From Escherichia coli (GTDB lineage: Bacteria > Pseudomonadota > Gammaproteobacteria > Enterobacterales > Enterobacteriaceae): a stretch of DNA of 9,889 bases. Numbering within the stretch: the stretch's first letter is position 1; every line of letters begins with the position of its first letter. Shown piece after piece: positions 6,130 through 6,230 of the stretch. The position numbers were made by a program, and so were the translations under genes. Below the pieces are notes generated by a model, which was not told the origin of the DNA, ran no database searches, and saw nothing but the letters and a program-made list of their open reading frames with translations. The stretch is from NCBI RefSeq assembly GCF_003334785.1, contig NZ_QOWV01000033.1. One strand, given 5' to 3'.

Positions 6130-6162
6130 ATTATCACCTATAAAATAAAATTTATAAATTTA

Positions 6163-6181
6163 GCCCCTTTACTTAAGGGGC
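6163..6181 (-). promoter_or_regulatory. Intercistronic stem-loop between usher and pilin genes (possible attenuator or RNA processing/stability element)
   Basis: GCCCCTT-TACTT-AAGGGGC, a 7-bp stem with a 5-nt loop in the roughly 100-nt usher-pilin spacer. On the transcribed (minus) strand it is followed by an interrupted T-rich tract, so at most a weak terminator. Confidence 0.4.
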
Positions 6182-6230
6182 GTGGAAATGATAATTAAAT
6201 TGGAAATAATTAAAGATAAAAAAACATCAA

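What the first reader, a model, noticed from the sequence alone, without database searches (positions are those of the whole stretch)
6130..6230. Structured spacer between usher and pilin genes
The roughly 100-nt spacer contains the stem-loop GCCCCTT-TACTT-AAGGGGC (6163-6181), followed on the transcribed strand by an interrupted T-rich stretch, and then the pilin ribosome-binding site. It could act as a partial terminator or processing site that sets usher:pilin stoichiometry, or precede an internal promoter for the pilin gene. The geometry is unusual because the highly expressed subunit gene is operon-distal.
Basis: seen in the sequence. Interest (0 to 1): 0.3.

Follow-up and report, generated by a model that had tools for sequence, protein, structure and literature searches.

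The report
Internal pilin promoter with 5' hairpin
The small hairpin between the usher and pilin genes is real and conserved, but it lies just downstream of a conserved Rns/AggR-type activator-dependent promoter, so it most likely forms the protected 5' end of a separate, abundant pilin mRNA and is not a terminator.

Summary
The hairpin GCCCCUU-AAGUA-AAGGGGC (6181..6163, minus strand) is present and more stable than chance. It is conserved in position, with 15 different stem sequences, in all 16 distinct usher-pilin spacers from homologous CS15/CS22/SEF14-family operons on E. coli and Salmonella plasmids.

The U-rich tail is not conserved, and the terminator scan does not call this hairpin. 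The operon's real terminator lies after the pilin gene (5592..5564).

Every spacer carries an invariant WWWWWWWTATC box (window GTTTTTTTATC, 6225..6215). A TAnnnT -10 hexamer follows 21-23 bp downstream (TATCAT, 6193..6188). This is the published layout of AggR/Rns-dependent promoters.

In the window the same layout occurs only twice more: upstream of the chaperone gene, with the identical 11-mer, and upstream of an ANR (Aar-like) gene. An Rns homologue is encoded 2 kb away.

The hairpin starts 3-7 nt after the -10, so the predicted start site (G6181) is its first base.

Best reading: an activator-dependent internal promoter makes a monocistronic pilin mRNA with a 5'-terminal stabilising stem-loop, which sets the pilin:usher ratio. 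The transcription start and the stabilising effect are inferred, not shown.

Both components are known kinds. The operon-distal position of the pilin gene is normal for this clade.

The parts
6215..6225 (-). Predicted Rns/AggR-type activator site GTTTTTTTATC (consensus WWWWWWWTATC), 12 nt after the usher stop codon
   Evidence: TTTATC is invariant in the 16-sequence spacer alignment A2. The site matches the consensus of PMC6392122. The identical 11-mer lies upstream of the chaperone gene.
6188..6193 (-). Predicted -10 hexamer TATCAT, 21 bp downstream of the TATC box
   Evidence: T, A and final T (TAnnnT) are invariant in A2. Spacing is 21-23 bp in all 16 spacers. Published AggR-dependent -10 hexamers include TAGCAT and TATCTT.
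6181..6181 (-). Predicted transcription start (7th base after the -10 hexamer), a G that is also the first base of the hairpin
   Evidence: Inferred from the usual -10 to +1 distance. Position +7 is a purine in 15 of 16 spacers (read from the sequences printed), and the stem starts 3-7 nt after the -10. Not shown experimentally.
6163..6181 (-). Stem-loop GCCCCUU-AAGUA-AAGGGGC, the finding itself; predicted 5'-terminal hairpin of the pilin mRNA
   Evidence: A hairpin sits at the same position in all 16 spacers, with 15 different stems. Eight internal G.U pairs are tolerated on the sense strand only.
6140..6162 (-). AU-rich leader (UAAAUUUAUAAAUUUUAUUUUAU), the 'interrupted T-rich stretch'; variable in length and sequence among homologues
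   Evidence: The distance from stem end to ATG varies from 26 to 49 nt, and the tail is not U-rich in most homologues.
6134..6139 (-). Shine-Dalgarno AGGUGA of the pilin gene
   Evidence: The G of the SD is nearly invariant in A2.
5623..6129 (-). Major fimbrial subunit gene (CS15/CS22/SEF14 family, PF06443), 168 aa
5564..5592 (-). Canonical intrinsic terminator AAAAACCUCCGG-AAUAA-CCGGAGGUUUUU, 30 nt after the pilin stop codon, inside an IS200-like remnant
   Evidence: IS200 similarity at about 5455-5610.
6231..8687 (-). Outer-membrane usher gene (818 aa)
8671..9435 (-). Periplasmic chaperone gene (254 aa from the annotated ATG at 9435)
9462..9500 (-). Predicted main operon promoter: GTTTTTTTATC, then 22 bp, then TATTGT, about 26 nt upstream of the chaperone ATG
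   Evidence: The same motif is present upstream of the chaperone gene in most homologous loci.
5177..5214 (+). Third copy of the promoter layout: GTATTTTTATC, then 21 bp, then TAGCAT, upstream of the ANR (Aar-like) gene 5245-5424
3470..4279 (+). Rns/CsvR/AggR-subgroup AraC regulator (269 aa), the candidate activator
   Evidence: phmmer against PDB: Rns E = 1.8e-59, CsvR 1.5e-52. It is 41% identical to CfaD and 39% to AggR.

Best explanation
The usher-pilin spacer is an activator-dependent internal promoter followed by a 5'-terminal mRNA hairpin.

An Rns/AggR-family regulator, probably the one encoded at 3470-4279, binds GTTTTTTTATC (6225..6215). This site overlaps the -35 position. The regulator recruits RNA polymerase to the -10 hexamer TATCAT (6193..6188).

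Transcription starts at about G6181, so the first 19 nt of the transcript fold into GCCCCUU-AAGUA-AAGGGGC. A base-paired 5' end is a poor substrate for RppH and for 5'-end-dependent RNase E attack. The short monocistronic pilin mRNA, which ends at the terminator at 5592..5564, would therefore be made in addition to the chaperone-usher-pilin transcript and would last longer. This gives a large excess of pilin over usher.

Shown here: the hairpin, its positional conservation with changing stems, the invariant TATC box and TAnnnT hexamer with constrained spacing, the same layout at two other genes in the window, and the presence of an Rns homologue.

Inferred: regulator binding, the transcription start site and the stabilising effect.
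For: (1) All 16 distinct spacers from homologous operons carry WWWWWWWTATC, with at most one non-W base. TAnnnT follows 21-23 bp later. Pilin identity to the window ranges from 38% to 100% by BLASTP (32% over the 74%-covering tblastn match). TTTATC and TAnnnT are invariant columns, while the mean column identity of the alignment is 55%.

(2) This is the architecture defined experimentally for AggR-dependent promoters: a WWWWWWWTATC site 21-23 bp upstream of the -10, which resembles Rns sites. The aafD site, GTTTATTTATC, also starts with G (PMC6392122).

(3) In the whole window, on both strands, the motif occurs 3 times against 0.44 expected, and only 2 of 500 shuffles reached 3. All three copies are intergenic and correctly oriented: upstream of the chaperone gene (identical 11-mer), the pilin gene and the ANR gene. 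Homologous loci repeat this pattern.

(4) An Rns homologue (E = 1.8e-59) and an ANR protein are encoded next to the operon. Related AraC genes sit next to many of the homologous operons.

(5) Length is constrained from stop to TATC (11-13 nt), TATC to -10 (21-23) and -10 to stem (3-7). The leader after the stem varies from 26 to 49 nt.

(6) The hairpin begins at +4 to +8 after the -10, and base +7 is a purine in 15 of 16 spacers.

(7) A hairpin is present at that place in all 16 spacers. Its free energy falls in the best 2% of shuffles in 12 of 16.

(8) There are 15 different stems that keep pairing. Changes include both-sided ones: G-C to A-U at the base, U-A to G-C near the loop in L014, and entirely different stems in L016 and L002. 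Eight internal G.U pairs occur on the sense strand, against no internal A.C mismatch, which indicates a sense-strand RNA structure.

(9) 5' secondary structure is an established stabiliser, because RppH and RNase E need single-stranded 5' ends. The examples cited are ompA and papA (review PMC3997798).
Against: There are no transcript data for this operon or its relatives, so the start site is a prediction.

The regulator is only about 40% identical to Rns/CfaD and AggR, and its DNA specificity is untested.

In the analogous caf1 operon, 5' RACE found no second promoter in the usher-pilin spacer. Differential mRNA stability was proposed there instead (PMC6440114).

The AAF/I aggB-aggA spacer lacks this layout, so it is not general to AggR/Rns-controlled fimbriae.

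The hairpin is weak in some homologues (L010 -2.6, L003 -3.2 kcal/mol).

Covariation could not be scored formally. MAFFT and CM alignments do not put the stems in register, and RNAalifold recovers only a 4-bp C-G core. My stem register was chosen on the sense strand, which biases the count of terminal pairs.
Confidence: 0.6

Rival explanations
1. There is no internal promoter. The operon is transcribed only from the promoter upstream of the chaperone gene. The hairpin acts inside the polycistronic RNA as a stability barrier. After endonucleolytic cleavage in the AU-rich stretch upstream of it, it becomes the protected 5' end of a long-lived pilin segment. This is the pap/caf-type model of differential mRNA decay.
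For: In the caf1 operon (same gene order, 80-nt spacer) caf1 mRNA is much more abundant than caf1A mRNA. Even so, 5' RACE found no spacer promoter (PMC6440114). The hairpin is also part of the minimum-free-energy fold of the polycistronic context in nearly all homologues. The sequence upstream of it is AU-rich and single-stranded. papA mRNA longevity depends on a 5' stem-loop (reference cited in PMC3997798).
Against: This model does not explain why TATC and TAnnnT are invariant and held 21-23 bp apart while the rest of the spacer drifts. It also does not explain why the same layout, with the identical 11-mer, sits at the chaperone and ANR promoters. The model is compatible with the best explanation as an additional route to the same protected 5' end.
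Confidence: 0.2
2. The hairpin is a partial intrinsic terminator (attenuator) that stops a fraction of transcripts after the usher gene.
For: The stem is GC-rich (-11.1 kcal/mol) and is followed in the window by a broken U-rich stretch, UAAAUUUAUAAAUUUUAUUUUAU.
Against: The scan does not call it terminator-like. The tail begins UAAA, not with a U run. In homologues the bases after the stem are A-rich or mixed, for example AACUAGGUUA, AUGUCAUAUC, CAUUAAUAAA and AGAUAGCAUG. Attenuation before the most-needed gene would lower pilin, not raise it, unless a promoter follows, and the promoter elements lie upstream of the hairpin. The operon's real terminator (7 G-C-rich pairs plus U5) lies after the pilin gene.
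Confidence: 0.07
3. The palindrome is a DNA-level element, such as a protein-binding inverted repeat, or a chance feature without function.
For: It is short (19 nt). On the window sequence alone the antisense hairpin is equally stable (-11.5 against -11.1 kcal/mol).
Against: Fifteen different stem sequences at a fixed position argue against a sequence-specific protein site and against chance. Eight internal G.U pairs would be C.A mismatches in DNA or in antisense RNA. The hairpin is the only G+C-rich island in spacers of 21-37% G+C.
Confidence: 0.03
4. A short leader ORF in the spacer couples translation to mRNA processing, as with the daaP ORF of the F1845 fimbrial operon (recalled from memory). 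In the window this is a 21-codon ORF that starts at the ATGA overlapping the usher stop and ends in the hairpin loop.
For: The window has the ORF MIDVFLSLIISNLIIISTPLK, which starts in the ATGA overlap and stops at the UAA in the hairpin loop.
Against: The ORF is not conserved in frame, length or presence. It is 10 codons in L006, has a different frame in L008, and is absent in L010.
Confidence: 0.02

Closest known systems
AggR-dependent promoters of enteroaggregative E. coli (aafD, afaB, aggD, agg3D, agg4D, aap, aatP, aar) and the related Rns/CfaD-dependent promoters of ETEC (Yasir et al. 2019, PMC6392122)
   Same: Both have a single WWWWWWWTATC site 21-23 bp upstream of a -10 hexamer with A at position 2 and T at position 6, and no good -35. 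Both have an AraC-family regulator of the Rns/AggR subgroup encoded on the same plasmid, and an ANR (Aar-like) gene carrying the same promoter type.
   Different: The known fimbrial examples lie upstream of the first gene of the operon. This one is internal, between usher and pilin, and its transcript would start with a hairpin. The regulator is only about 40% identical to AggR and CfaD. No activity has been measured. The AAF/I aggB-aggA spacer has no such site.
5'-terminal stem-loop mRNA stabilisers (ompA 5' UTR; papA mRNA), as cited in PMC3997798
   Same: A stable hairpin lies at or within about one nucleotide of the predicted 5' end of a very highly expressed envelope or pilin mRNA. In pap it also sets the ratio of pilin to the other operon products.
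   Different: The papA 5' end is made by RNase E cleavage of papBA mRNA (from memory). Here a primary start is predicted. There is no sequence similarity and no Rfam family. The effect on half-life is untested.
caf1A-caf1 intergenic region III of the Yersinia pestis F1 operon (PMC6440114)
   Same: The order is chaperone-usher-pilin with a spacer of 80-100 nt. Pilin mRNA must exceed usher mRNA. A Rob-like AraC regulator is encoded nearby; the window has one at 4327-5151.
   Different: In caf, 5' RACE found no spacer promoter and the operon depends on the upstream promoter. Here a conserved activator box and -10 hexamer are present in the spacer.
Rho-independent (intrinsic) terminators and intercistronic attenuators
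   Same: A G+C-rich stem-loop in an intercistronic spacer.
   Different: There is no conserved U-tract directly after the stem, and the scan does not call it. The operon's true terminator at 5592..5564 shows what one looks like here.

Membership tests
AggR/Rns-dependent promoter | Activator site matching WWWWWWWTATC (TATC exact, at most 2 non-W bases in the tract) | tested here: met
   GTTTTTTTATC at 6225..6215 has one non-W base, the same leading G as the aafD site. TATC is invariant in all 16 spacers.
AggR/Rns-dependent promoter | -10 hexamer 21-23 bp downstream of the site, with A at position 2 (and T at position 6) | tested here: met
   TATCAT lies 21 bp downstream in the window. TAnnnT lies 21-23 bp downstream in 16 of 16 spacers.
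AggR/Rns-dependent promoter | Cognate regulator of the Rns/AggR/VirF subgroup present | tested here: met
   The 269-aa protein at 3470-4279 matches Rns at E = 1.8e-59 over its full length. It is 41% identical to CfaD and 39% to AggR.
AggR/Rns-dependent promoter | Transcription from the site is regulator-dependent and is lost when TATC or the -10 is mutated | not testable with these tools
   Needs reporter fusions or primer extension, as in PMC6392122.
5'-terminal stem-loop mRNA stabiliser (ompA/papA type) | Stable stem-loop with no more than a few unpaired nucleotides at the mRNA 5' end | tested here: inconclusive
   The hairpin is stable (-11.1 kcal/mol) and starts 6 nt after the -10, so the predicted +1 is its first base. 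The actual 5' end is unknown.
5'-terminal stem-loop mRNA stabiliser (ompA/papA type) | The structure, not the sequence, is conserved | tested here: met
   There are 15 different stems at the same position, with both-sided changes and sense-strand G.U pairs. Caveats: the register was set by hand, and RNAalifold on MAFFT alignments supports only a 4-bp core.
5'-terminal stem-loop mRNA stabiliser (ompA/papA type) | Removing the stem shortens mRNA half-life in an RppH/RNase E-dependent way | not testable with these tools
   Needs rifampicin chase experiments on stem mutants.
Intrinsic terminator | G+C-rich stem-loop | tested here: met
   Seven pairs, five of them G-C.
Intrinsic terminator | U-tract immediately 3' of the stem | tested here: not met
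   The tail is UAAAUUUAUA, and the terminator scan did not report the hairpin. Tails in homologues are not U-rich.
Any Rfam RNA family | Covariance-model match at 6130-6230 | tested here: not met
   cmscan at E <= 1 found nothing in the spacer.
daaP-type translation-coupled processing leader | Conserved short ORF in the spacer | tested here: not met
   Small ORFs differ in frame and length or are absent among homologues.

The most novel reading that the evidence does not exclude
CS15/CS22-family operons may solve the 'distal pilin' problem with a dedicated second promoter wired to the same master regulator. The start site of that promoter would have co-evolved with a hairpin so that the pilin mRNA is made with a structured, RppH-resistant 5' end. 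The same hairpin would also protect the pilin segment of processed read-through transcripts. Pilin:usher stoichiometry would then be a regulated output of Rns/ANR activity and not a fixed property of the operon.
Probability: 0.2. Interest if true: 0.5.

Novelty: new member of a known kind. Interest (0 to 1): 0.38.

Why it matters
If the model is right, it explains how this family of ETEC and EAEC colonisation-factor operons (CS15, CS22 and CS22-like fimbriae, the last now used to define typical EAEC) makes far more pilin than usher even though the pilin gene is last.

It would place the pilin gene directly in the Rns/AggR-type regulon through its own promoter. It also gives a simple sequence rule (TATC box, 21-23 bp, TAnnnT, then a hairpin) for annotating these plasmids.

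There are two practical uses. One is predicting expression of a vaccine-relevant adhesin. The other is design of anti-virulence strategies aimed at Rns-family regulators.

It is an incremental finding. Both components are textbook mechanisms, and nothing here challenges current understanding.

Tried and rejected
1. The genome-contig scan with pilin peptide patterns found no relatives. Homologues were obtained instead through the protein database and the look-up of encoding contigs.

2. The Rfam search found nothing in the spacer.

3. Formal covariation scoring did not work. MAFFT alignments of the hairpin region are not in structural register, and RNAalifold gives only a 4-bp C-G core. A covariance model (R1) re-found the hairpin in 15 of the 16 sources searched (not L010). 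It aligned the hits without indels and picked up a few spurious ones, so I did not use A4 for pair counts. I used a hand-set register instead and flag its bias.

4. The terminator reading was rejected on the tail and on conservation.

5. The leader-peptide reading was rejected because the small ORFs are not conserved.

6. An anti-SD idea was considered. The usher 3' end UCACCUGU pairs with the pilin SD in the polycistronic fold of the window and L006. This is not conserved across homologues, and SD accessibility differs only modestly, so it was not adopted.

7. The sigma-70 consensus scan gave only background-level hits. The one hit in the spacer on the operon strand (TTTATA-17-GATAAT) would start transcription inside the pilin start codon region, so it was rejected.

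8. I checked whether AAF/I has the same internal promoter. It does not.

9. The primary papA stem-loop paper (PMC93829) is not held. It is cited only through the review.

Full report
**Context**

The window is 100% identical to two E. coli IncFIA plasmids, NZ_AP022179.1 and NZ_CP069544.1. In NZ_AP022179.1 an eatA autotransporter toxin gene lies about 2 kb beyond the chaperone gene.

On the minus strand lie a periplasmic chaperone (8671..9435), an outer-membrane usher (6231..8687) and a 168-aa major subunit (5623..6129). The subunit belongs to the CS15/CS22/SEF14 family, PF06443.

Next to them are:
- an ANR-family gene (5245-5424, +);
- a Rob/Caf1R-like AraC gene (4327..5151, -);
- a 269-aa AraC gene (3470-4279, +).

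The 269-aa protein is a full-length homologue of Rns and CsvR, with E = 1.8e-59 and 1.5e-52 against solved structures. It is 41% identical to CfaD and 39% to AggR.

**The observation**

The + strand reads GCCCCTT-TACTT-AAGGGGC at 6163-6181. The operon strand reads GCCCCUU-AAGUA-AAGGGGC at 6181..6163.

It is followed by UAAAUUUAUAAAUUUUAUUUUAU, the SD AGGUGA (6139..6134) and the ATG (6129).

Its energy is -11.1 kcal/mol, and 1 of 300 dinucleotide shuffles gave an equally good hairpin at that place. The 126-nt region folds with z = -3.2. No Rfam family matches the spacer.

**Comparative evidence**

Tblastn and a profile search with the pilin found a compact family: 19 clusters at 90% identity, all from E. 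coli or Salmonella. I fetched 20 related loci.

All 19 loci that include the upstream genes have the order chaperone-usher-pilin. L014 holds only the usher 3' end and the pilin gene. The usher-pilin spacer is 95-119 nt in all 20. The operon-distal pilin is therefore the rule in this clade. It is also the rule in caf1M-caf1A-caf1 (PMC6440114) and in aggC-aggB-aggA. It is not an oddity.

There are 16 distinct spacer sequences. Each has a small C-run/G-run hairpin at the same position, with 15 different stems. Examples:
- GCCCCUU/AAGGGGC (window);
- ACUCCGU/ACGGGGU (L014);
- AACACACCU/AGGUGUGUU (L016);
- AUCCCU/AGGGGU (L004) and AUCCCU/AGGGAU (L005);
- GUCCCU/GGGGGC (L017);
- CCCCA/UGGGG (L019);
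- CACCA/UGGUG (L002).

In 12 of 16 spacers the hairpin is in the best 2% of shuffles.

In my register there are both-sided changes: G-C to A-U at the stem base, U-A to G-C in L014, and wholly different stems in L016 and L002. There are 8 internal G.U pairs on the operon strand and no internal A.C mismatch. This is the expected pattern if the structure matters as sense-strand RNA.

That register was set by hand. MAFFT-based RNAalifold supports only a 4-bp core. A covariance model did not improve the register.

**Not a terminator**

The scan did not report the hairpin as terminator-like. The bases right after the stem are not U-rich in the homologues, for example AACUAGGUUA, AUGUCAUAUC, CAUUAAUAAA and AGAUAGCAUG.

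The operon does have a canonical terminator, AAAAACCUCCGG-AAUAA-CCGGAGGUUUUU at 5592..5564. It lies 30 nt after the pilin stop codon, inside an IS200-like remnant.

**What else is in the spacer**

The 16-sequence alignment (A2, mean column identity 55%) has few invariant columns inside the spacer. They are:
- TTTATC, about 12 nt after the usher stop;
- T-A-n-n-n-T further on;
- a stem C;
- one unexplained T in the leader.

The SD G is nearly invariant.

In every spacer a WWWWWWWTATC box, with at most one non-W base, is followed after 21-23 bp by TAnnnT. The hexamers seen are TATCAT, TAGCAT, TAGTAT, TAAGAT, TAATAT and TATAAT.

This is the architecture established by mutagenesis and primer extension for AggR-dependent promoters. 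In that work a single WWWWWWWTATC site lies 21-23 bp upstream of the -10. The sites resemble Rns sites, and Rns-family regulators are often interchangeable. The aafD promoter uses GTTTATTTATC and TAGCAT, and afaB uses TTTTTATTATC and TATCTT (PMC6392122).

In the window the box is GTTTTTTTATC (6225..6215) and the -10 is TATCAT (6193..6188), 21 bp apart.

Scanning both strands of the whole window for [AT]5-7 TATC, then N20-23, then TAnnnT gives exactly three sites:
- 9500..9462 (-), with the identical 11-mer GTTTTTTTATC, about 26 nt upstream of the chaperone ATG;
- the spacer;
- 5177-5214 (+), upstream of the ANR gene.

A version of the scan requiring 21-23 bp gives the same three sites, against 0.44 expected. 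Only 2 of 500 dinucleotide shuffles reached three.

The homologous loci show the same sites upstream of chaperone, pilin and ANR genes. In EAEC the ANR gene aar is itself AggR-activated, so the set looks like one small regulon.

**Geometry**

Segment lengths are tightly held where the promoter model needs them to be, and free elsewhere:
- stop to TATC, 11-13 nt;
- TATC to -10, 21-23 nt;
- -10 to first stem base, 3-7 nt (5-7 in 15 of 16);
- stem end to ATG, 26-49 nt.

The seventh base after the -10 is a purine in 15 of 16 spacers. It is the first stem base or the base just before it. In the window it is G6181.

The predicted transcript would therefore begin with the hairpin. The chaperone and ANR promoters have no such hairpin.

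**Mechanism proposed**

A second promoter, dependent on an Rns-type activator, makes a short pilin mRNA of about 0.6 kb that ends at the 5592..5564 terminator. Its 5' end is base-paired.

RppH and the 5' sensor of RNase E both need single-stranded 5' ends. For that reason 5' stem-loops stabilise mRNAs such as ompA and papA (PMC3997798).

Extra initiation plus longer life would give the pilin excess that fibre assembly needs.

The sequence features are shown. Binding, the start site and stabilisation are inferred.

**Rivals**

(a) Processing only. In the caf1 operon the pilin mRNA is much more abundant, yet 5' RACE found no spacer promoter, and differential stability was proposed. The hairpin also forms in the polycistronic fold. 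It could therefore protect a cleavage-generated 5' end. This does not explain the invariant TATC and TAnnnT pair, and it may coexist with the promoter.

(b) Attenuator. Rejected, as explained above.

(c) DNA palindrome or chance. Rejected on the stem diversity and the G.U asymmetry.

(d) Leader peptide. The window has a 21-codon ORF that starts in the ATGA overlap and stops in the hairpin loop. It is not conserved.

(e) An anti-SD pairing between the usher 3' end and the pilin SD is seen in the window and L006 only.

**Novelty**

Searches found no description of promoters, internal or otherwise, for CS15, CS22 or CS22-like operons.

A review lists the ETEC fimbriae known to be activated by Rns as alpha-clade, and places the footprinted Rns sites next to the -35 of the promoters that drive those gene clusters. 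AAF operons were reported to be driven from one upstream AggR promoter, and the AAF/I aggB-aggA spacer lacks the motif.

This is therefore a new instance of two known mechanisms, placed at an unusual internal position. It is useful for annotation and for understanding adhesin expression, but it is not surprising in kind.

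Noticed in passing
window 994-2607 (+): A group II intron. It comprises a reverse-transcriptase/maturase ORF (994-2517, 507 aa) followed by an Rfam Intron_gpII (domain V-VI) match at 2521-2607, scoring 64.9 bits with E = 2.7e-11.
   Followed up: no
window 5455-5610, terminator at 5564-5592: An IS200-like remnant, about 92% identical to IS200 ends on many plasmids, lies between the convergent pilin and ANR genes. It supplies a perfect bidirectional hairpin terminator, AAAAACCTCCGG/CCGGAGGTTTTT. The pilin transcript's terminator therefore appears to be borrowed from an insertion sequence. A weak sroD Rfam hit here (E = 0.38) is probably chance.
   Followed up: partly
window 9462-9500 (-) and 5177-5214 (+): There are two further copies of the TATC-box/-10 layout. 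GTTTTTTTATC-22-TATTGT lies upstream of the chaperone gene, with an 11-mer identical to the spacer site. GTATTTTTATC-21-TAGCAT lies upstream of the ANR (Aar-like) gene. This suggests a small Rns-type regulon with a built-in negative regulator, like AggR-Aar.
   Followed up: partly
window 4327-5151 (-): A second AraC-family regulator, of the Rob/Caf1R type (N-terminal HTH; RobA model E = 2.6e-27), lies beside the Rns-like one. It is found only in the closest relatives (L006, L021). The caf1 operon is controlled by a Rob-like regulator, so this operon may have two layers of AraC control.
   Followed up: no
L004 7722-7781 (also L005): In the CS15/CS22-type ETEC plasmids the same motif (ATTAATTATC-21-TATGTT) sits about 45 nt upstream of the EatA-like S6 serine-protease autotransporter gene. 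This hints that the toxin gene is in the same regulon. The leader would be very short, with no clear SD.
   Followed up: partly
window 6234-6245 with 6134-6141 (-): In the polycistronic fold, the last codons of the usher gene (UCACCUGU) pair with the pilin Shine-Dalgarno region (AUAGGUGA). A transcript that starts at the hairpin would lack this anti-SD. The pairing is seen in the window and L006 but is not conserved in other homologues.
   Followed up: partly
window 9436-9480 (-): The longest chaperone ORF starts at a TTG at 9480. That start would lie inside the predicted promoter, between the TATC box and the -10. The annotated ATG at 9435, preceded by AGGAGG, is the credible start.
   Followed up: partly
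window 2670-3086 (+) and 269-1040 (-): There is a truncated IS3-family transposase fragment (138 aa, integrase core). There are also long ORFs antisense to the group II intron region that look like non-coding artefacts.
   Followed up: no
L002 5710-5760: In the O157:H7 plasmid homologue, the usher gene ends in a strong 10-bp hairpin, CCGACACGCA...CGUGUGUCGG, that overlaps the stop codon. This is in addition to the weaker spacer hairpin. Its role is unknown.
   Followed up: no
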